From contig JBEKRC010000005.1 in assembly GCA_049997875.1 (NCBI GenBank), positions 1,679 to 65,678 of the forward strand: a DNA stretch of 64,000 bases, given 5' to 3'. Below are positions 26,845 to 41,714 of the stretch, in pieces. The stretch's first letter is position 1. Every line of letters starts with the position of its first letter. The translations under genes were made by a program, and so were the position numbers. Under the pieces are notes generated by a model, which made no database searches, was not told the DNA's origin, and worked only from the letters and a program-made list of their open reading frames with translations. Source of the DNA: Minisyncoccia bacterium. GTDB taxonomy: Bacteria; Patescibacteriota; Minisyncoccia; UBA6257; 2-01-FULL-56-20.

Positions 26845-26846
26845 TG

Positions 26847-26917
26847 TCGGGCCGCCGGGAATTGAACCCGGTCTAAACGCACCCCATGCGCTTGTACTAC
26901 CGGTATACTACGGCCCG
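26847..26917 (-). tRNA. tRNA-Pro (anticodon GGG)
   Basis: Hand-folded 71-nt cloverleaf. Acceptor CGGGCCG/CGGCCCG, U8 A9, D-arm GTAT-ACCGGTA-GTAC, anticodon arm AGCGC-ATGGGGT-GCGTT, variable TAGA, T-arm CCGGG-TTCAATT-CCCGG, discriminator A. CCA is not encoded. Confidence 0.6.
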
Positions 26918-28761: not shown

Positions 28762-29447
28762 GCGGGCAATACTTTCAGTTTCTCAAAATCGTTCAGTACG
28801 AAGAAGCCGACGATGAGAAGAAATACAACTACATACGTGATATCCCCGTAATTCAGTATAAGATAGTTGAAAAATGTGTGCAAGGCAGTAGCGATCACAA
28901 AACCAATCGTAAGATTCCGCCCCACCTTCTTCCGTGCAATGCCGAGTGCCCAGTGGTATCCCACGATGCCCGACGTGAGCGAGTGGAGAAGGGTGGCGCC
29001 TACGAACCGGAGCGAGGAAGCTTCAAAGAACGCACCAACAAACGCTGCCTGCGAAGTCATGAAAGAAGTATTGGAAATCGCGCCGATGTTTTCCAGCGTT
29101 GCGAATCCCATCGCGGCCACGACCATGTAGAGCATCCGCTCCACCGGTTCGTCAAGCAGGGGACTTTTTCCGACTGCGAAATACGCCGCGCCGAACTTCA
29201 TTACTTCTTCAATGAGCGCGAGTCCGGCGAGCGAAATGAGGGAAAGCCCCTCAATGCCCCATTGTCCTTCGGCGTGGCTGAACATCTGTTCGGTAACGAT
29301 CGCGAAGAATCCGAACGCGATGCCGCACACGAACGTAAGGACGATCAGGCGCTTAGGCTCGGGATGGGGCTCTTCGGTGAAATAAAACATGAGCCACGCG
29401 AATCCGGGCAGGAGTCCGAACACGAGTGTGGCGACGAGGAGGGGCAT
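28758..29447 (-). CDS. PrsW-family intramembrane metalloprotease
   Basis: Multi-TM protein with EEVMKF (E-E-x-x-K), FATLEN and HTFFNY motifs. Confidence 0.6.
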   Translation of the reverse strand: MPLLVATLVFGLLPGFAWLMFYFTEEPHPEPKRLIVLTFVCGIAFGFFAIVTEQMFSHAEGQWGIEGLSLISLAGLALIEEVMKFGAAYFAVGKSPLLDEPVERMLYMVVAAMGFATLENIGAISNTSFMTSQAAFVGAFFEASSLRFVGATLLHSLTSGIVGYHWALGIARKKVGRNLTIGFVIATALHTFFNYLILNYGDITYVVVFLLIVGFFVLNDFEKLKVLPA

Positions 29448-34168: not shown

Positions 34169-34318
34169 AGATTATCTTGAGCGTGGCGAGGGAACTGGCC
34201 CAATGACCCACCGACAACCCCCGGCAATGCGCAATGGCGCGGCGACGAAAAGGTGTCACATCCAGCCCGCAAGGGAAAGATAAAGGTCGCAACGCTTTTC
34301 TTTCGGGAGGGGCGTTTT
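34169..34318 (+). promoter_or_regulatory. SAM-I (S-box) riboswitch with terminator-type expression platform, upstream of metK
   Basis: UUAUCUUGAGCGUGGCGAGGGAACUGGCCCAAUGACCCACCGACAACC...AAAAGGUGUCACAUCCAGC...AAGAUAA matches the S-box core (GAGGGA, UGGCCC, AUGA, GCAACC-like, AAGGUGC..AUCC.GC) and has a complementary P1 strand. A hairpin plus U-run follows at 34290-34318. An extended -10 TGcTATACT lies at 34142-34150. Confidence 0.6.
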
Positions 34319-37317: not shown

Positions 37318-38001
37318 ATGAAAAAGCTCGCCATTTTTGACATTGACGGGACGATCTTCCGGTCCAGTCTGCTCATTGAACTTGTGGACGCGTTGATTCA
37401 CGAGGGGATTTTCAAGCCAAGCGTGATGCGGATCTACGAGCGGGATAAACGCGCATGGCTTGACCGGAAGGGGGACTACGACGCCTATATTGAAAGCGTC
37501 ATCAGGGCGTTCCTCAAAAATATCAAAGGCGTGCCGTATGCCCGTTTCGCGCGCGTGGCGAAAAAAGTGGTCGCGCTCCACAAGAACCGCGTGTACCGCT
37601 ATACCCGCGATCTCGTTCGCGCTTTAAGGCGCAGGGGATATTGGCTCGTCGCGATCTCGCACTCGCCGCGCGGCGTTGTGGGACCGTTCGCCGCGCAGAT
37701 GGGATTCAATAAAGTGTACGGGCTGCTGTACGAACTCGGCCCCACGAGGCGGTTCAACGGGAAGGTGATGTTTGAGGATCTGATTTTTGACAAGGCGAAG
37801 ATCGTGGCGCGCGTGCTTGCGAAAGAGGGCGTCACGCTCAGCGGTTCCGTGGGCGTGGGGGATACGGAGAGCGACATTCCTTTTTTGAAGCTCGTCACCC
37901 GGGCGATCTGCTTCAATCCGAACGGAAAGCTTTACCGCGCGGCACGCCGCCACGGTTGGGAGATTGTCGTGGAGCGGAAGGACGTGGTGTATCGGATGTA
38001 G
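37318..38001 (+). CDS. HAD-superfamily hydrolase
   Basis: MKKLAIFDIDGTIF is HAD motif I. A downstream GVGDTESD segment is HAD motif IV. Confidence 0.7.
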   Translation: MKKLAIFDIDGTIFRSSLLIELVDALIHEGIFKPSVMRIYERDKRAWLDRKGDYDAYIESVIRAFLKNIKGVPYARFARVAKKVVALHKNRVYRYTRDLVRALRRRGYWLVAISHSPRGVVGPFAAQMGFNKVYGLLYELGPTRRFNGKVMFEDLIFDKAKIVARVLAKEGVTLSGSVGVGDTESDIPFLKLVTRAICFNPNGKLYRAARRHGWEIVVERKDVVYRM

Positions 38002-38009
38002 ATTTGATT

Positions 38010-38286
38010 TGGATTCTTAACGCTGGAAGCAACCAGGAGGACTGGGTTAAGGCCTTACCTGGAACTTAGCGCGGTGTGGTACTGCCCCTTTTTCGATTGT
38101 AAGTCGTGTAGGAGTTGCGCCTCGCACTCTCCCTCCTCCTGCCTCAGGCACTTGCCCGTCGGCTTAGACGGCGGCGTTTCAGCCACCGGCGTCAGGCGTT
38201 CGGAATCACCCTACTTGCCACGGGGGAGATGCTTTATCCCATACCACGAGGATTATTCAGCCACTACTTCCAGCGTTAAGAATCCA
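38010..38286. repeat. 277-bp element bounded by perfect 20-bp inverted repeats (MITE-like or long closing helix of a structured RNA)
   Basis: TGGATTCTTAACGCTGGAAG at 38010-38029 and its exact reverse complement at 38267-38286. The interior is GC-rich and ORF-poor with several hairpins. Confidence 0.4.
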
Positions 38287-38322
38287 ATAAAGATAACGGC
38301 GGCTCATTGCCGATGGTTACTA

Positions 38323-38360
38323 CTTTTTTAATATTTTTTTAATGCTCCGCGTGCAATGCT
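38323..38360 (+). promoter_or_regulatory. AT-rich promoter motif variant CTTTTTTAATATTTTTTTAATG upstream of paralog A
   Basis: Motif 38323-38344. Candidate -10 tgcaatgct at 38352-38360. Confidence 0.4.
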
Positions 38361-38366
38361 TGGCGG

Positions 38367-38792
38367 ATGGTACATCGTTATCGCGTGGATGAGAAAGGAG
38401 CAAAAAAGCTTTATAAGAAGATAGGAAGCGTATCTTGCAGTCTATTCGGCGGGGAGGCAGTATATTTCAATAGCATCGGATTTCGTCATCTTATTCTGAA
38501 GCATGGTGTCCAGAGGTCATCGCGTGAAATAAAAAGGCGCTTTGCCCTATTGCCTTACGTGGCGGAGATCGTCGAGAAATCGGGCAGGCTTATTTCTCGC
38601 AAGGAAAAAATCACGAATCGGCCAATCCATCGCCATGGAAAGCGGACCTATTCGCCTTCAAGAGCGACCTTCTGGACGCTTCGAGCAGGAGTGGACGGCA
38701 GGGACGTGACGGTAATTGTCCGGCAATTTCAAGGCGGCAAAAAACATTTTCTCAGCGTATACGATAAGAAAAACAAAAAACTCCCTTCGTAG
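38367..38792 (+). CDS. hypothetical small protein, paralog A of a two-member family in this window
   Basis: 141 aa. Shares VYFNSIGFRHLI...RRFALLPYV...FW...VIVRQ..GGKKHFLSVY with the 40346 gene (roughly 40% identity by eye). Confidence 0.5.
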   Translation: MVHRYRVDEKGAKKLYKKIGSVSCSLFGGEAVYFNSIGFRHLILKHGVQRSSREIKRRFALLPYVAEIVEKSGRLISRKEKITNRPIHRHGKRTYSPSRATFWTLRAGVDGRDVTVIVRQFQGGKKHFLSVYDKKNKKLPS

Positions 38793-38803
38793 GGGAGCTT
38801 TTT
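38781..38803 (+). terminator. intrinsic terminator overlapping the paralog A stop codon
   Basis: ctccc-ttcgtag-gggag followed by cttttt. Confidence 0.5.
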
Positions 38804-38804
38804 G

Positions 38805-38866
38805 ATATGCCCGCTTCAACGATATAGCCGAATGGGACTGACGCCCCGCGGGCATGGTTTTATTGT
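38805..38866 (+). other. conserved hairpin element, copy 1: outer stem atgcccgc/gcgggcat, core GCCGAATGGGAC-TGAC-GCCCC
   Basis: Family member. Compare 40737-40800 and the inverted copy at 40221-40270. The outer stems differ while the core is conserved. Confidence 0.45.
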
Positions 38867-38890
38867 GGGCGATTTTTCACACAAGTCAAG

Positions 38891-38913
38891 TTTCTTTTAA
38901 TAATTTTTTAATG
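38891..38913 (+). promoter_or_regulatory. AT-rich promoter motif TTTCTTTTAATAATTTTTTAATG upstream of xseA
   Basis: Exact motif copy. Confidence 0.45.
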
Positions 38914-39019
38914 TGTATGTTGTACCATGGATGCGGGCGTGATGCCTTTCACCATCGGCATGCCCCGAACTCCCGCAAGACCGCTCGCAAGAGCGGTTTT
39001 GTGCTGCTACAATAACCAT

Positions 39020-40168
39020 ATGAAGCCGCTGAACGCAGCCGACCATGTCTTCACGATTGGCGAATACATAGAGATCCTGAATACGTTCTTCAAGGCGCAG
39101 GCGGCGAGGATCAGGGGAGAGATCTCGGAGCTGCACCGTGACGCAAAGGGCCACGTCTACTTCGCGATTAAAGATAAAGATGACGGTAGTGTTTTAAGCT
39201 GCATCATCTGGAACCGCAATTACGATCTCTGCGGGGTAGTGCTTGAGGTGGGAATGGAGCTGATCCTCTCGGGGCACCCGAACATTTACGCGCCGAATGG
39301 GCGGCTGTCTTTCATTGCGGATACGGTGGAGCTCGTAGGCGAAGGAGCCTTGAAGAAAGCGTACGAAGCGCTTAAGCGAAAACTGGAAGCGGAGGGCGTG
39401 TTCGCGCCGGAGCGGAAGAGGCCGCTTCCGGAATATCCGACGCAGATCGGAGTTGTGACGTCCATGAAGGGCGCCGTGATCCACGATTTCCTGAATAACC
39501 TTGGGAAGTTCGGGTTCAGGGTGCGCGCGACGGATTCGCGCGTGGAGGGGCAGCAAGCGGTGGTACCTCTTTTGAACGCACTTGCCCTCATGCGGCGCGA
39601 GGCGCAGGCGGGGCGGCTGGACGTGCTCGTTTTGATCCGGGGCGGCGGGTCGCTCGAATCATTGCAGGCATTCAATAACGAAAAGCTTGTGCGCGAGATC
39701 GTGCATTTTCCGGTGCCCGTCGTCGCAGGGATCGGGCACGACAAGGATGTCCCCTTGTCGGCGCTCGCGGCGGATATTATGGTTTCCACGCCGACTGCCA
39801 CGGCGCATCTTTTGAGCAAGCCATGGGAGGAGGCGTACGCGAAAGTGAGGGAGGCGGCGTATCTTTTTTCCCGGGTGGAATCGCGATTTGAACGGATTCG
39901 CGCGGATCTGGACGCTGCGTGGAGTTCGGTGATTGACCACACGGCGCAGGGGATAGCGCATGCAAAGGAGATTTTTGCGAACGCCGAACGGCTGATTGCG
40001 CTCCATGATCCGCGCAGGCAGCTGCGACTCGGCTATGCGATCGTGCGGCACGGCGGCGAAGGAGGCGAGGCCGGTAAGCTCGTGCGGAGCATGCGGGATG
40101 TGGCCGCGGGAGATGTTTTGAACACGGAACTTGCGGACGGGGTGGTGAAGTCAAGGGTGGAGGAGTAG
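39020..40168 (+). CDS. xseA: exodeoxyribonuclease VII large subunit
   Basis: N-terminal OB-fold FTIGEYIEILNTFFKAQAARIRGEISELHRDAKGHVYFAIKD and catalytic core GGGSLESLQAFNNE...VAGIGHDKDVPLSALAAD. Confidence 0.8.
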   Translation: MKPLNAADHVFTIGEYIEILNTFFKAQAARIRGEISELHRDAKGHVYFAIKDKDDGSVLSCIIWNRNYDLCGVVLEVGMELILSGHPNIYAPNGRLSFIADTVELVGEGALKKAYEALKRKLEAEGVFAPERKRPLPEYPTQIGVVTSMKGAVIHDFLNNLGKFGFRVRATDSRVEGQQAVVPLLNALALMRREAQAGRLDVLVLIRGGGSLESLQAFNNEKLVREIVHFPVPVVAGIGHDKDVPLSALAADIMVSTPTATAHLLSKPWEEAYAKVREAAYLFSRVESRFERIRADLDAAWSSVIDHTAQGIAHAKEIFANAERLIALHDPRRQLRLGYAIVRHGGEGGEAGKLVRSMRDVAAGDVLNTELADGVVKSRVEE

Positions 40169-40180
40169 AAGTCAAATTTA

Positions 40181-40214
40181 TTTTAATAATTTTTTAATCT
40201 CTGCGTGCTATAAT
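40181..40214 (+). promoter_or_regulatory. AT-rich promoter motif TTTTAATAATTTTTTAAT plus gcTATAAT driving the small RNA at 40221
   Basis: Motif 40181-40198. TATAAT at 40209-40214. Confidence 0.5.
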
Positions 40215-40220
40215 AATCGT

Positions 40221-40299
40221 GTGCTTGGGGGACTAACGTCCCGTTCGGCCACCAAGCTGAGCCCAAGCACATCAAAGTCACCGCGCACGCGGTGTTTTT
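40221..40299 (+). ncRNA. candidate small RNA carrying an inverted copy of the hairpin family, with its own promoter and intrinsic terminator
   Basis: gtgcttggg-ggactaacgtcc-cgttcggcc-...-cccaagcac. Its reverse complement has GCCGAACGGGAC-GTTA-GTCCC. Ends with accgcg-cac-gcggtg plus a T run at 40280-40299. Confidence 0.4.
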
Positions 40300-40300
40300 G

Positions 40301-40338
40301 ATATTTTTTAAATATTTTTAATGCTCTTTTTTATATGA
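40301..40338 (+). promoter_or_regulatory. AT-rich promoter motif variant plus TTATATGAT -10; leaderless for paralog B
   Basis: atattttttaaatatttttaatg, then ttatatgat 7 nt before the ATG at 40346. Confidence 0.45.
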
Positions 40339-40345
40339 TGCGGCG

Positions 40346-40699
40346 ATGGGCTACCGCGAAACAAAAAAGAAGGCAAGAACGTTCTACTCAAATATGAAAC
40401 CAGCCATACCTCCCAGATTAGAGAAAACAGTTTTCTTCAACAACATAGGGTTTAGGCACCTCATTTGGAAAGGTGGAAAACATCGACCGAAAAGCGAGCA
40501 GACGAGGCGTTTCGCTCTGCTTCCTCACGTAGAAAAGATCATAAGCAATCCTGACGCAACGGTTCTTCGCAAGGTGAAGCACTACAGACCCGTCCGTGCG
40601 GAATTTTGGATCTTTAAAGAAAGGGTGGGGAAGATGATGATCACGGTGGTGATAAGGAGGATTGGGAACGGGAAAAGACATTTTTTCAGCGTTTATTAA
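40346..40699 (+). CDS. hypothetical small protein, paralog B
   Basis: 117 aa, VFFNNIGFRHLIW...RRFALLPHVEKII...FWIF...VVIRRIGNGKRHFFSVY. Inserted between xseA and xseB. Confidence 0.5.
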   Translation: MGYRETKKKARTFYSNMKPAIPPRLEKTVFFNNIGFRHLIWKGGKHRPKSEQTRRFALLPHVEKIISNPDATVLRKVKHYRPVRAEFWIFKERVGKMMITVVIRRIGNGKRHFFSVY

Positions 40700-40712
40700 G
40701 GGCATCAAAAAT

Positions 40713-40736
40713 CCGCTCAGGATTGAGCGGTTCTTT
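40713..40736 (+). terminator. intrinsic terminator after paralog B
   Basis: ccgctc-aggatt-gagcgg followed by ttcttt. Confidence 0.45.
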
Positions 40737-40800
40737 GATATGCCCGTTACCAGCCATGTAACGCCGATTAGGGACTTCCGTCCCACGGGCATACTCCCAT
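40737..40800 (+). other. conserved hairpin element, copy 3: outer stem atgcccg/cgggcat, core GCCGATTAGGGAC-TTCC-GTCCC
   Basis: Same architecture as copy 1. Confidence 0.45.
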
Positions 40801-40833
40801 TTTAGGGCAATCTATTCTTGAAAGTCAACTTTC

Positions 40834-40874
40834 TTTTAATGATTTTTTAATCTTTCGGCGATAAGGAGTATAAT
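40834..40874 (+). promoter_or_regulatory. AT-rich promoter motif TTTTAATGATTTTTTAATC plus gagTATAAT; leaderless for xseB
   Basis: TATAAT at 40869-40874. ATG at 40882. Confidence 0.5.
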
Positions 40875-40881
40875 AAACCCA

Positions 40882-41088
40882 ATGGCTGCGAAACCCGCGA
40901 AAGACGATTTCAAACATCATTTGGAGGAGATCGGAAAGATCCTTTCCTGGTTTGATGCGCAGGAGGAGCTGGATGTGGAAGCCGCGCTTCTGAAGATAAA
41001 AAAGGCGGCGGAGCTTATTAAGGCGAGCCGGAAGAGGCTTAAGGAGATTGAGAATGAATTTGAGGAGATAAAGGGGGAGACGGAGTAG
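40882..41088 (+). CDS. xseB: exodeoxyribonuclease VII small subunit
   Basis: 68-aa coiled-coil protein FKHHLEEIGKILSWFDAQEELDVEAALLKIKKAAELIKASRKRLKEIENEFEEI. Confidence 0.7.
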   Translation: MAAKPAKDDFKHHLEEIGKILSWFDAQEELDVEAALLKIKKAAELIKASRKRLKEIENEFEEIKGETE

Positions 41089-41094
41089 GGCGCA

Positions 41095-41382
41095 TTAACG
41101 GTCAACAAGCGCGATCTGCTTATTGAACACGTGCGCGATCCTGTACAGGGTTGCGAGAGATACGGGGTGTTTTCCAGATTCTATCCGCGCAACGACTGAT
41201 TGTGGCATAGATGCTTTCGCCGCCACTTGTTTCTGCGTCATGTTTTTCTTTTGCCGAAGCACCTTTATCTGATAGGCAAGGCGGAGGCGATTCACTTCTT
41301 CGGTGAACCCCTTTCTGAAGGCGGGGTTTTTAAGTTCTTCTTTTAGAACTTTCTCAAAGGGAATAAATTTCAGTTTTTCCAT
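41095..41382 (-). CDS. HTH XRE-family antitoxin (HigA-like)
   Basis: KNMTQKQVAAKASMPQSVVARIESGKHPVSLATLYRIAHVF is a helix-turn-helix. Overlaps the upstream toxin gene by 13 nt. Confidence 0.65.
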   Translation of the reverse strand: MEKLKFIPFEKVLKEELKNPAFRKGFTEEVNRLRLAYQIKVLRQKKNMTQKQVAAKASMPQSVVARIESGKHPVSLATLYRIAHVFNKQIALVDR

Positions 41383-41714
41383 GGCAGCTGTTTGAATGTT
41401 TTATATATTGCTTCCGCTTTTCTTATGATGCGGAGCGGTGTCTTTTGGGATTGTTTTTTGAACAAGGAGACAAAATAGATTGCCTCGCCGCTTTTGAAGA
41501 AAATCAGGCGATAGCGATGAACGATGAGTTCCTGAATGCCGCCACGGAGGGTTTTTATCGTAAGCGCCCCCACTTCTCCTTCTCGCAATAGTGTGAGATG
41601 CGCATAGATTTTGTCCTTCTCGTGCACGGGGAGGTCGGATAGTGCCCTGTAGAAATCATGAAGGAAATGAAGGGTGGTCATCAAGCGCCCTTCTCCCGGA
41701 TAGGAGTATAGCAA
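41370..41714 (-). CDS. RelE/ParE-superfamily toxin (HigB / phage Gp49-like); alternative start at Met12
   Basis: GIQELIVHRYRLIFFKSGEAIYFVSLFKKQSQKTP is the Gp49/HigB-like pattern. Toxin-first gene order with the XRE antitoxin. Confidence 0.6.
   Translation of the reverse strand: MLYSYPGEGRLMTTLHFLHDFYRALSDLPVHEKDKIYAHLTLLREGEVGALTIKTLRGGIQELIVHRYRLIFFKSGEAIYFVSLFKKQSQKTPLRIIRKAEAIYKTFKQLPWKN

What the first reader, a model, noticed from the sequence alone, without database searches (positions are those of the whole stretch)
38805..40800. Three-member hairpin-element family with compensatory stem changes, one copy inverted and independently transcribed
Copy 1 (38805-38866) and copy 3 (40737-40800) share outer stem atgcccg / cgggcat. 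Their conserved cores are GCCGAATGGGAC-TGAC-GCCCC and GCCGATTAGGGAC-TTCC-GTCCC.
Copy 2 (40221-40270) is the reverse complement. Its outer stem is entirely different (gtgcttggg / cccaagcac), but the core is the same: GCCGAACGGGAC-GTTA-GTCCC.
The tetraloop sequence varies while the GGGAC/GTCCC helix is kept. That points to selection on structure, RNA or cruciform DNA, rather than on sequence.
Copy 2 is in antisense orientation relative to its promoter motif plus TATAAT at 40181-40214 and its terminator at 40280-40299. So either the element functions in both orientations, as a DNA site, or an antisense RNA of the family is expressed.
Basis: seen in the sequence. Interest (0 to 1): 0.55.

Follow-up and report, generated by a model that had tools for sequence, protein, structure and literature searches.

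The report
New small-RNA genes paired with toxin-like protein
The three "hairpin elements" are genes for a previously undescribed, roughly 85-nucleotide folded RNA of ultra-small (CPR) bacteria; it always travels with a small, basic, RNase-like protein gene as a portable two-gene cassette that looks like a toxin/RNA-antitoxin pair.

Summary

**What the copies are.** All three copies are small-RNA (sRNA) genes. Each has a promoter whose predicted start is the first base of the outer stem. Each RNA has a three-way junction (P1, P2, P3), an A-rich linker and an intrinsic terminator.
- Copy 2 lies on the + strand.
- Copies 1 and 3 lie on the − strand, each with its own TTGACT promoter.

**Evidence for the RNA strand.**
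- In 17 sequences from 14 loci plus the window, 92.9% of cells pair, and 11 of 19 pairs show compensatory changes.
- G·U pairs favour this strand 36 to 8.
- It folds 7–11 kcal/mol better than the opposite strand.

**Gene partner.** Copies 1 and 3 converge on two paralogous ORFs (141 and 117 aa) and share a bidirectional terminator with them. The same ORF→terminator←sRNA cassette was found next to all 17 homologous ORFs examined, in unrelated CPR contigs. It often sits between housekeeping genes.

**The protein.** It belongs to a large unnamed family (>1000 clusters). It is very basic, has an LPD3-like fold, and carries a His/Ser pattern like BECR RNases.

**The RNA** has no Rfam match.

**Best reading (function inferred, not shown).** The RNA binds and neutralises the RNase-like protein, as in a type III-like toxin–antitoxin module. 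Copy 2 is an orphan RNA gene.

The parts
38772..38855 (-). sRNA gene, copy 1 (about 84 nt). The 5' end is at 38855 and the three-way-junction core spans 38807-38855. An A-rich linker covers 38798-38806. The terminator hairpin is at 38781-38797, followed by a U-tract (the A-run 38768-38780 on the + strand).
   Evidence: Covariance-model hit of 55.2 bits on the minus strand. Fold energy -42.4 kcal/mol, z -6.1, against -31.3 on the + strand. A minus-strand terminator was found by the scan.
38862..38912 (-). Promoter of sRNA copy 1. The -35 TTGACT is at 38889-38884 and the -10 CACAAT ends at 38862. An A/T-rich UP-like block (ATTAAAAAATTATTAAAAGAAAC) spans 38890-38912.
   Evidence: Promoter scan. 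The same layout is present in 17 of 20 copies. The block motif occurs only three times in the window.
38367..38792 (+). ORF141, a small basic LPD3-like protein and the partner of sRNA copy 1. Its stop codon lies inside the shared terminator loop. Its A/T-rich promoter block is at 38324-38347.
   Evidence: It is 38% identical to ORF117. Family HMM E = 7.6e-43. It matches protein P0161 of a Minisyncoccia genome.
40170..40220 (+). Promoter of sRNA copy 2. It comprises the AGTCAA/AT-rich block 40170-40198, the extended -10 TGcTATAAT at 40206-40214, and a 6-nt discriminator.
   Evidence: Sequence. The same promoter lies in front of the near-identical sRNA in L013, and L023a has the same type.
40221..40300 (+). 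sRNA gene, copy 2 (about 80 nt), an orphan with no convergent ORF. The core spans 40221-40270, the linker 40271-40278 and the terminator hairpin 40279-40294, followed by a U-tract.
   Evidence: Covariance-model hit of 54.6 bits on the + strand. Fold energy -42.8 kcal/mol, z -5.7. A terminator was found by the scan. In L013 the near-identical RNA is the convergent partner of a 143-aa family member.
40346..40699 (+). ORF117, a small basic LPD3-like / BECR-like protein and the partner of sRNA copy 3. Its promoter block is at 40303-40326 and a -10-like TATGAT lies at 40334-40339, 6 nt before the ATG.
   Evidence: Weak Pfam hits to LPD3 (E = 5.5e-4) and PBECR3 (E = 0.044). AlphaFold2 model with pLDDT 95.6. 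Fold match to LPD3-annotated phage proteins with TM 0.58-0.61. More than 1000 family clusters.
40705..40792 (-). sRNA gene, copy 3 (about 88 nt). The 5' end is at 40792 and the core spans 40740-40792. The linker covers 40731-40739. The terminator hairpin at 40713-40730 is shared with ORF117, and is followed by a U-tract.
   Evidence: Covariance-model hit of 70.1 bits on the minus strand. Fold energy -45.7 kcal/mol, z -7.2. Terminators on both strands were found by the scan.
40799..40851 (-). Promoter of sRNA copy 3. The -35 TTGACT is at 40828-40823, followed by an 18-nt spacer and the -10 TAAAAT at 40804-40799. The A/T-rich block spans 40829-40851.
   Evidence: Promoter scan, 10 of 12 consensus positions matched. 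Position table.

Best explanation
**Shown or strongly supported.** The three elements are paralogous genes for a structured sRNA of about 80-88 nt.
- Transcription starts at the first base of helix P1.
- The RNA folds into a tight three-way junction: P1 of 7-9 bp; P2, a 5-bp hairpin with a tetraloop; and P3, (A)UCGGC/GCUGR(U), which is rich in G·U pairs.
- An A-rich linker and an intrinsic terminator follow.
- The RNA gene is one half of a compact, portable two-gene cassette. The other half is a convergently transcribed gene for a very basic protein of 115-145 aa, of the LPD3 / BECR-like kind. The two genes share a bidirectional terminator.

**Inferred.** The cassette is a toxin-antitoxin-like module of the RNA-protein (type III-like) sort.
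- The strongly promoted sRNA binds the predicted metal-independent RNase and keeps it inactive. Loss or decay of the RNA frees the protein.
- Copy 2 is an orphan antitoxin-type RNA. It was left behind when its minus-strand ORF was replaced by the ORF117 + copy 3 cassette. The older state is still visible in the related genome L013.
For: **It is an RNA gene on the strand opposite the ORF.**
- TTGAC lies at -32 to -41 and a TAnnnT hexamer lies 6 nt before P1 in 17 of 20 copies, while the spacers between them are not conserved. The other three copies use a TTTAAT..N7..TATAAT promoter.
- An independent scan finds the window's promoters and terminators.

**Structure.**
- 92.9% of cells pair, against 36-50% when the partners are slid.
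- 11 of 19 pairs change on both sides, and 0 of 500 shuffles reach the observed score.
- L033 adds a further compensatory pair.

**Strand.**
- G·U cells number 36 on this strand against 8 on the other.
- This strand is more stable in 17 of 20 copies.
- For the window copies it is more stable by 7-11 kcal/mol.
- The model scores 55-70 bits on this strand against 13-16 on the other.

**Not coding.** Core lengths of 47, 49, 50, 51 and 53 nt differ by amounts that are not multiples of 3.

**Linkage.**
- All 17 distinct family ORFs with downstream sequence have the convergent sRNA. Fifteen were found by the model and L010 and L016 by eye.
- The cassettes sit in unrelated contexts: secY|adk, xseA|xseB, beside rpsO, metK and T4SS genes.

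**Protein.**
- The family is large.
- Median pI is 9.96.
- H38, K42, R47, R55, R104, H112 and S115 are invariant or nearly so.
- It has an LPD3-like fold.
- It has the His-in-helix plus C-terminal Ser pattern described for PBECR RNases (PMC5512222).

**Asymmetry typical of toxin-antitoxin systems.** Orphan RNA genes exist (W_c2, L023a, L001a, and the second copy in L016), but no ORF lacks an RNA.

**No protein antitoxin candidate** is present in the cassette.

**Precedent.** A single structured RNA neutralises a toxic protein by direct binding in AbiF/RCd22 (bioRxiv 10.1101/2025.04.15.648962).
Against: - There is no experimental or expression data. Toxicity, RNase activity and RNA-protein binding are all untested.
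- The Pfam LPD3 and PBECR3 hits fall below the gathering thresholds.
- There is no PADLOC or PHROGs hit and no solved-structure relative, so 'RNase' rests on a residue pattern and a fold class.
- Known type III systems use tandem-repeat RNAs placed upstream of the toxin and transcribed in the same direction. Here the RNA is a single unit, convergent, and has its own promoter (no tandem repeats).
- Only 17 of more than 1000 protein clusters were sampled for their genomic context.
Confidence: 0.45

Rival explanations
1. The RNA and the protein form a working ribonucleoprotein rather than a toxin-antitoxin pair. The sRNA would be the scaffold, cofactor or natural substrate of the basic LPD3-like protein. 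The cassette's function could be, for example, defence, counter-defence or RNA processing.
For: - Linkage is strict, 17 of 17.
- The conserved three-dimensional fold shows covariation, as expected for an RNA recognised by shape.
- The protein is very basic.
- LPD3 domains occur in effector ('polyvalent') proteins of phages and conjugative elements.
- Some cassettes sit in T4SS or toxin-antitoxin/Abi neighbourhoods.
Against: - Orphan RNA genes with intact promoters and structure occur without an ORF (W_c2, L023a). This is easier to explain for an antidote than for a cofactor.
- No segment of the RNA is variable in the way a guide would be.
- The variable parts are either loops or covarying stems.
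Confidence: 0.25
2. Control is of the type I kind, by cis-antisense or convergent transcription. The sRNA would regulate the ORF through the roughly 30-nt 3' overlap at the shared terminator or through transcriptional interference. This would resemble the convergent txpA/RatA or bsrG/SR4 pairs.
For: - The arrangement is convergent, with a shared bidirectional terminator, in every cassette.
- The sRNA promoter is near consensus and has an UP-like block.
- The ORF promoter is weak.
Against: - The overlap is only the terminator hairpin.
- The covarying three-way junction lies outside the overlap and would serve no purpose in this model.
- There is no cognate-specific duplex with the mRNA 5' region or coding sequence: cognate -28.4 against non-cognate -27.5 ± 7.5 kcal/mol.
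- The protein is a soluble 117-145-aa globular protein, not a short hydrophobic peptide.
- Orphan copy 2 lies upstream of and in the same direction as ORF117, where it cannot act in cis.
Confidence: 0.15
3. The element is a DNA-level site, as in the first reader's alternative. It would be a folded single-strand or cruciform recombination site, of the attC or REP kind, that moves the cassette and works in either orientation.
For: - The cassettes are clearly mobile and carry no recombinase.
- Structure is conserved more than sequence.
- A/T-rich blocks flank the cassettes as direct repeats.
Against: - A -35/-10 promoter is placed so that the predicted start is exactly the first stem base, and a terminator follows, in 20 of 20 copies.
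- The strand asymmetry is strong.
- There are no attC R/L boxes.
- The orientation relative to the ORF is fixed, 17 of 17 convergent, rather than free.
Confidence: 0.05
4. The elements are ordinary intrinsic terminators or chance hairpins with no function of their own.
For: Each copy is adjacent to a genuine terminator hairpin.
Against: - The three-way-junction core is separate from the terminator and has no U-tract.
- It is conserved with covariation across distant genomes.
- It has its own promoter.
Confidence: 0.02

Closest known systems
Type III toxin-antitoxin systems (ToxIN, CptIN, TenpIN) and the AbiF/RCd22 RNA-protein pair
   Same: - A small structured non-coding RNA is encoded beside a (predicted) endoribonuclease, with a terminator between the two.
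- There is no protein antitoxin.
- The modules are selfish or mobile.
- AbiF/RCd22 shows that a non-repeat structured RNA can neutralise a toxic protein by direct binding.
   Different: - The RNA is a single three-way junction, not tandem repeats.
- It is convergent and has its own consensus promoter, rather than lying upstream and being co-transcribed.
- The protein has an LPD3 / BECR-like fold, not ToxN/AbiQ or Abi_2.
- Function is untested.
Convergent type I toxin-antitoxin pairs (txpA/RatA, bsrG/SR4; from general knowledge)
   Same: - The sRNA has its own promoter.
- It is transcribed towards the toxin gene.
- It overlaps the toxin gene's 3' end.
   Different: - The overlap is limited to the shared terminator.
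- The protein is a 117-145-aa basic globular protein, not a hydrophobic peptide.
- The conserved part of the RNA lies outside the overlap.
LPD3 (PF18798) and PBECR domains of phage and conjugative-element polyvalent proteins (Iyer et al. 2017, PMC5512222)
   Same: - The fold matches LPD3-annotated phage proteins: TM 0.58-0.61, probability at least 0.99.
- There are weak full-length LPD3 and PBECR3 profile hits.
- It has the His-in-N-terminal-helix plus C-terminal Ser pattern of PBECR RNases.
   Different: - It is a stand-alone chromosomal protein of CPR bacteria.
- It is always paired with an sRNA gene.
- Sequence scores fall below the Pfam thresholds.
- LPD3 itself has no assigned function.
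HEARO / OMEGA (IscB, TnpB with omega-RNA) cassettes (from general knowledge)
   Same: A structured RNA gene travels with a small nuclease-like ORF as a mobile unit.
   Different: - There is no RuvC, HNH or transposase domain.
- The RNA has no guide-like variable segment.
- The RNA is convergent and has its own promoter.
- It is far smaller, at about 85 nt.
Type III hammerhead ribozyme
   Same: - It is a three-way junction with an open outer helix.
- On the ORF strand a CCGAUKA stretch superficially resembles the CUGAUGA core.
   Different: - The GAAA core and the cleavage-site context are absent.
- There is no Rfam hit even at E <= 10.
- Strand evidence points to the other strand.

Membership tests
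Any Rfam 15 RNA family | A covariance-model match at or near the family's gathering score | tested here: not met
   A gathering-threshold scan of the whole window finds only a SAM riboswitch and a tRNA. An E <= 10 scan of 37800-41200 gives only sub-threshold chance hits: mir-2, rimP and Phe leader matches on the terminators.
Type III toxin-antitoxin (ToxIN/CptIN/TenpIN) | The antitoxin is an array of tandem direct repeats upstream of the toxin gene, transcribed in the same direction | tested here: not met
   There are no tandem repeats in 37900-41100. The RNA is a single unit and is convergent in 17 of 17 cassettes.
Type III toxin-antitoxin (ToxIN/CptIN/TenpIN) | The toxin belongs to the ToxN/AbiQ, CptN or TenpN endoRNase families | tested here: not met
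   There are no PADLOC hits at E <= 1. The only Pfam hits are weak ones to LPD3 and PBECR3.
Type III toxin-antitoxin (ToxIN/CptIN/TenpIN) | The RNA binds the toxin protein directly and inhibits it | not testable with these tools
   This needs toxicity-rescue and binding experiments.
Type I toxin-antitoxin (convergent antisense class) | The toxin is a short hydrophobic, membrane-active peptide | tested here: not met
   The proteins are 117-145 aa, with pI 9.1-11.4. The AlphaFold2 model is a confident globular alpha+beta fold.
Type I toxin-antitoxin (convergent antisense class) | There is extended antisense complementarity between the RNA and the toxin mRNA | tested here: inconclusive
   Complementarity exists only over the shared terminator, about 30 nt. 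There is no cognate-specific pairing elsewhere.
LPD3 (PF18798) | A Pfam profile match above the gathering score | tested here: inconclusive
   ORF117 scores 20.6 bits against a cut-off of 27, over the full length (3-112 of 114). ORF141 has no hit. Three homologues carry a precomputed PF18798 assignment.
LPD3 (PF18798) | The same three-dimensional fold | tested here: met
   Foldseek against BFVD gives two LPD3-annotated phage proteins at TMq 0.58-0.61, probability 0.99-1.0. These are predicted structures on both sides.
BECR / PBECR metal-independent endoRNases | An N-terminal helix followed by a 4-5-stranded sheet, with a catalytic His (or Arg) in the helix and a C-terminal Ser/Thr | tested here: inconclusive
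   The topology is helices followed by 4 strands. H38 is invariant in a helix and S115 is invariant in the last strand, which matches the description in PMC5512222. PBECR3 scores only E = 0.044. There is no PDB fold match. Catalysis is untested.
Hammerhead ribozyme (type III) | The conserved CUGAUGA...GAAA core and a cleavage site around three helices | tested here: not met
   The junction between P2 and P1 is 0-2 nt, so there is no GAAA. There is no Rfam hammerhead hit at E <= 10.
Integron attC site | R''-L''...L'-R' boxes (GTTRRRY), a promoterless cassette, and folding of one DNA strand | tested here: not met
   The sequences contain no GTTRRRY or RYYYAAC boxes. The element has its own promoter and terminator, and the ORF has its own promoter.

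The most novel reading that the evidence does not exclude
This would be a new class of RNA-protein addiction or defence cassette, widespread in CPR/Patescibacteria. An LPD3 / BECR-like RNase toxin is held in check by a dedicated three-way-junction sRNA with its own strong promoter. The roughly 650-bp two-gene unit has no recombinase. It spreads into, and turns over at, intergenic sites inside housekeeping operons (xseA|xseB, secY|adk). It carries outward-facing A/T-rich promoter blocks that keep the downstream host genes expressed. It would also give the first functional handle on the LPD3 domain of phage polyvalent proteins.
Probability: 0.3. Interest if true: 0.75.

Novelty: new variant of a known kind. 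Interest (0 to 1): 0.6.

Why it matters
- CPR bacteria have tiny genomes, very few characterised regulatory RNAs, and a large share of unnamed proteins.
- Here a protein family of more than 1000 clusters with no function acquires an obligate RNA partner that has clear covariation and defined transcript ends. That turns it into a directly testable system through toxicity rescue, EMSA and RNA-seq.
- If the toxin-antitoxin reading holds, RNA-antitoxin systems would extend to a new toxin fold and a new gene layout. It would also suggest a role for the LPD3 domains injected by phages and plasmids.
- The cassette's habit of sitting inside conserved operons is a useful marker for genome plasticity in CPR.
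- Gene callers currently annotate spurious antisense ORFs that start at the sRNA's AUG.

Tried and rejected
1. **Known RNA family.** Rfam scans at the gathering threshold and at E <= 10 found nothing. ARAGORN found only tRNA-Pro, elsewhere in the window.
2. **Hammerhead-like core on the ORF strand.** Rejected: there is no GAAA, no Rfam hit, and it is the wrong strand.
3. **Short leaderless peptide starting at the AUG/GUG of P1.** Rejected.
   - Core lengths differ by amounts that are not multiples of 3.
   - P1 covaries.
   - Some copies start with AUAA rather than a start codon.
4. **Trans-antisense pairing of the sRNA with the cognate mRNA's 5' end or coding sequence.** Cognate and non-cognate duplex energies are indistinguishable.
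5. **Genome-wide promoter motif.** The AGTCAA...TTTTTTAAT block occurs only three times in 64 kb, always beside a copy.
6. **More copies in the window.** There are none: for the RNA, and for the protein, which finds only the two ORFs.
7. **Phage origin.** A DNA-pattern scan of viral contigs gave only spurious GC-rich hits. The protein alignment was too diverse for the viral protein scan.
9. **Population microdiversity.** Five other assemblies of this locus are 100% identical, so they carry no information.
10. **MAFFT alignment A5/A6.** It misplaced P3 by one column in four sequences. The covariation counts were therefore made on the model-based realignment A8, which leans towards the model.
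Full report
**1. Observation**

The three copies are present at 38807-38855, 40221-40270 (inverted) and 40740-40792, with the stems and the GGGAC-NNNN-GYCCC hairpin as described.
- GGGACNNNNGYCCC is found only there in 64 kb, against 0.19 expected by chance.
- A covariance model run without filters over the window finds exactly three copies.
- The window comes from a Minisyncoccia (CPR/Patescibacteria) genome.

**2.

Aligning the copies with their flanks shows that each one is joined to a GC hairpin of variable sequence plus (C)TTTGAT.
- Copies 1 and 3 lie immediately 3' of two paralogous ORFs: 38367-38792 (141 aa) and 40346-40699 (117 aa), which are 38% identical.
- A 29-nt AGTCAAnTTTnTTTTAATnATTTTTTAAT block occurs only three times in the window, once next to each copy.

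**3. Related loci**

Homologues of the ORFs were located in other CPR contigs through.
- All 17 distinct ORFs with enough downstream sequence show the same order: ORF, hairpin, element, about 25 nt, GTCAA, A/T-rich block.
- The covariance model recovers 15 of these ORF-linked copies, including ones not used to build it: L019, L007, L012 and L033. It also recovers two copies that are not ORF-linked and were likewise not used to build it, L023a and L001a.
- L010 and L016 are recognisable by eye.
- The contexts are unrelated. Cassettes sit between secY and adk, between xseA and xseB, next to rpsO or rplT, after metK, and within T4SS or toxin-antitoxin/Abi neighbourhoods.

**4. It is an RNA gene on the strand opposite the ORF**

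*Promoter and terminator.* Anchoring on the first base of the outer stem, read on the strand antisense to the ORF, gives a consistent layout.
- 17 of 20 copies have TTGAC at -32 to -41.
- A TAnnnT hexamer ends 6 nt before the stem.
- The spacers between them are not conserved.
- An ATTAAA-N5-ATTAAA, UP-like block lies upstream.
- Copy 2, its L013 twin and L023a instead use TTTAAT-N-TGnTATAAT-type promoters.
- All copies are followed by an A-rich linker, a GC hairpin and a U-tract.
- The generic scan independently reports the minus-strand promoters 40828→40799 (10 of 12) and 38889→38862. It also reports terminators on the appropriate strands.

*Structure.* On this strand a third helix forms, P3: (A)UCGGC/GCUGR(U). 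This gives a tight three-way junction.

*Covariation.* On 17 sequences, 92.9% of cells are paired, against 36-50% for slid partners. 11 of 19 pairs change on both sides, and 0 of 500 shuffles reach the observed score. Examples:
- P1: AUGCCCG/CGGGCAU changing to GUGCUUG/CAAGCAC, GUGUCUG/CAGACAC and AUGUCCG/CGGACAU.
- P2: GGGAC/GUCCC changing to GGGGC/GCCCC and GAGG/CCUC.
- P3: UCGGC/GCUGA changing to UCAAC/GUUGA and UCCGC/GCGGA.

*Strand choice.*
- There are 36 G·U cells on this strand against 8 on the other.
- This strand is the more stable in 17 of 20 copies.
- For the full-length window RNAs the energies are -42.4, -42.8 and -45.7 kcal/mol (z -6.1, -5.7, -7.2). The opposite strand gives -31.3, -35.5 and -34.4.
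- The model scores 55-70 bits on this strand against 13-16 on the other.

*Not coding.* Core lengths of 47 to 53 nt rule out a peptide.

*Consequence.* Copy 2 is therefore in the sense orientation for its promoter. Copies 1 and 3 are minus-strand genes that converge on the ORFs and share a bidirectional terminator with them.

**5. History of the locus**

- In L013, a related genome, xseA and xseB are separated by a 143-aa family member. Its convergent sRNA is almost identical to the window's copy 2, promoter included.
- In the window that ORF is gone. The ORF117 + copy 3 cassette begins right after copy 2's terminator.
- L001 has xseA and xseB adjacent to each other, which is an empty site.
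- L023 shows the same 'upstream co-directional orphan sRNA plus complete cassette' layout.
- L016 has two sRNA genes in tandem.
- L001 has a degenerate remnant.
- Cassettes therefore turn over at the same sites, and orphan RNA genes persist.

**6. The protein**

- A profile search finds 1060 clusters at 50% identity. Nearly all are stand-alone proteins of 115-150 aa, and all are unnamed.
- Pfam gives only weak LPD3 (E = 5.5e-4) and PBECR3 (E = 0.044) hits.
- PADLOC and PHROGs give nothing.
- The AlphaFold2 model is confident (pLDDT 95.6) and consists of four helices followed by a four-stranded meander.
- It has no PDB relative. It does match LPD3-annotated phage proteins at TM 0.58-0.61.
- The family is very basic, with median pI 9.96. 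Y14, H38, R47, R55 and S115 are invariant, and K42, R104 and H112 nearly so.
- A His in an N-terminal helix plus a C-terminal Ser/Thr on a helix-then-sheet core is how Iyer et al. describe PBECR endoRNases (PMC5512222). 'RNase' is therefore a reasoned prediction, not a demonstrated activity.

**7. Mechanism**

*Shown:* an sRNA gene with a covarying three-way junction, obligately linked to this protein gene in a mobile cassette.

*Inferred:* the RNA is the antidote of an RNase-like toxin and acts by direct binding, in a type III-like manner. The reasons are:
- the cassette contains no protein antitoxin;
- the RNA promoter is near consensus with an UP-like block, while the ORF promoter is weak;
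- the conserved part of the RNA is a shape lying outside the region that overlaps the mRNA;
- orphan RNAs exist, but no orphan ORF was found;
- the distribution is that of a selfish element.

AbiF/RCd22 is a precedent for a single structured RNA neutralising a toxic protein.

*Rivals:*
- A functional ribonucleoprotein.
- Type I-like 3'-overlap control. This is weakened by the lack of cognate-specific pairing and by the size and solubility of the protein.
- A DNA-level site. This is weakened by the promoters and the strand asymmetry.
- Plain terminators, which is contradicted.

**8. Comparison and novelty**

- There is no Rfam family.
- The literature searches turned up no description.
- It fails the defining layout of known type III systems: tandem repeats and a ToxN-type toxin.
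- It also fails the definition of type I systems, which need a hydrophobic peptide toxin.
- It may nevertheless work like a type III system.
- I rate it a new variant of a known kind: a new sRNA family together with a new RNA-protein cassette architecture.

**9. Verdict**

Confidence is about 0.9 that these are sRNA genes partnered with the LPD3-like ORFs. Confidence is about 0.45 for the full toxin-antitoxin-like mechanism.

Noticed in passing
window 38011-38285: Perfect 19-nt inverted repeats (GGATTCTTAACGCTGGAAG) at 38011-38029 and 38267-38285 flank about 240 bp between the HAD hydrolase gene and the ORF141 cassette. The region folds with z -4.3 on the + strand and -4.9 on the - strand. It has no Rfam hit and is absent from the HAD-xseA junction in L013. 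It could be a MITE-like insertion or a large structured RNA. A diverged single arm lies at 29090-29108.
   Followed up: partly
window 38926-39003 (+): Downstream of the A/T block of copy 1, and of a TACCAT -10-like hexamer, lies a stem-loop followed by a strong terminator-like hairpin (ACCGCUCGCAAGAGCGGUUUU). The region folds with z -4.5. It sits just before xseA's own TACAAT. It may be another short transcript or an attenuator. The sRNA model does not match it.
   Followed up: partly
window 38324-38347, 38890-38912, 40176-40198, 40303-40326, 40829-40851: A/T-rich TTTAAT-N5-TTTAAT-type blocks lie on the same strand at both borders of each cassette. As a result xseA itself is bracketed by two of them. 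They may be outward-facing promoters that restore expression of the downstream host gene, or recombination sites for cassette exchange.
   Followed up: partly
window 40334-40348, 39010-39022, 40869-40884: -10-like hexamers (TATGAT, TACAAT, TATAAT) sit only 6-7 nt upstream of the ATG of ORF117, xseA and xseB, with no Shine-Dalgarno sequence. This suggests leaderless mRNAs in this organism.
   Followed up: no
window 38658-38855 (-), 40418-40792 (-); L002 1883-2077 (-); L019 2380-2550 (-): Open reading frames that start at the sRNA's 5' AUG and run antisense through the protein gene are listed or called as genes in public annotations. They are most likely artefacts of the sRNA gene.
   Followed up: partly
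window 38768-38792: ORF141 has lost the usual stop after ...HFLSVY. It reads on through the A-tract into the terminator loop, giving the extension DKKNKKLPS, and its stop codon lies inside the hairpin.
   Followed up: no
window 34169-34286 (+): A SAM-I riboswitch (Rfam RF00162, 51.7 bits, full length).
   Followed up: no
window 26846-26917 (-): tRNA-Pro (GGG), the only tRNA in the window.
   Followed up: no
window 41095-41714 (-): Just downstream of xseB lies a pair of genes: an HTH_31/HTH_3 protein (95 aa) and a Gp49 (HigB-like) protein. This is a type II toxin-antitoxin-like pair according to the precomputed Pfam hits for the identical locus L028. The xse region is therefore a small island of selfish modules.
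   Followed up: no
L016 2400-2710; L016 1422-1871 and 3932-4414: Two sRNA genes of a longer-P2 subtype lie in tandem after one family ORF. Their RNAs begin with an AUAA leader. PemK and AbiEii genes flank the region.
   Followed up: partly
L033 1501-2031: A family ORF with several frameshifts lies next to an intact sRNA gene (53 bits). This is either toxin decay with the antidote retained, or homopolymer errors in a long-read assembly.
   Followed up: partly
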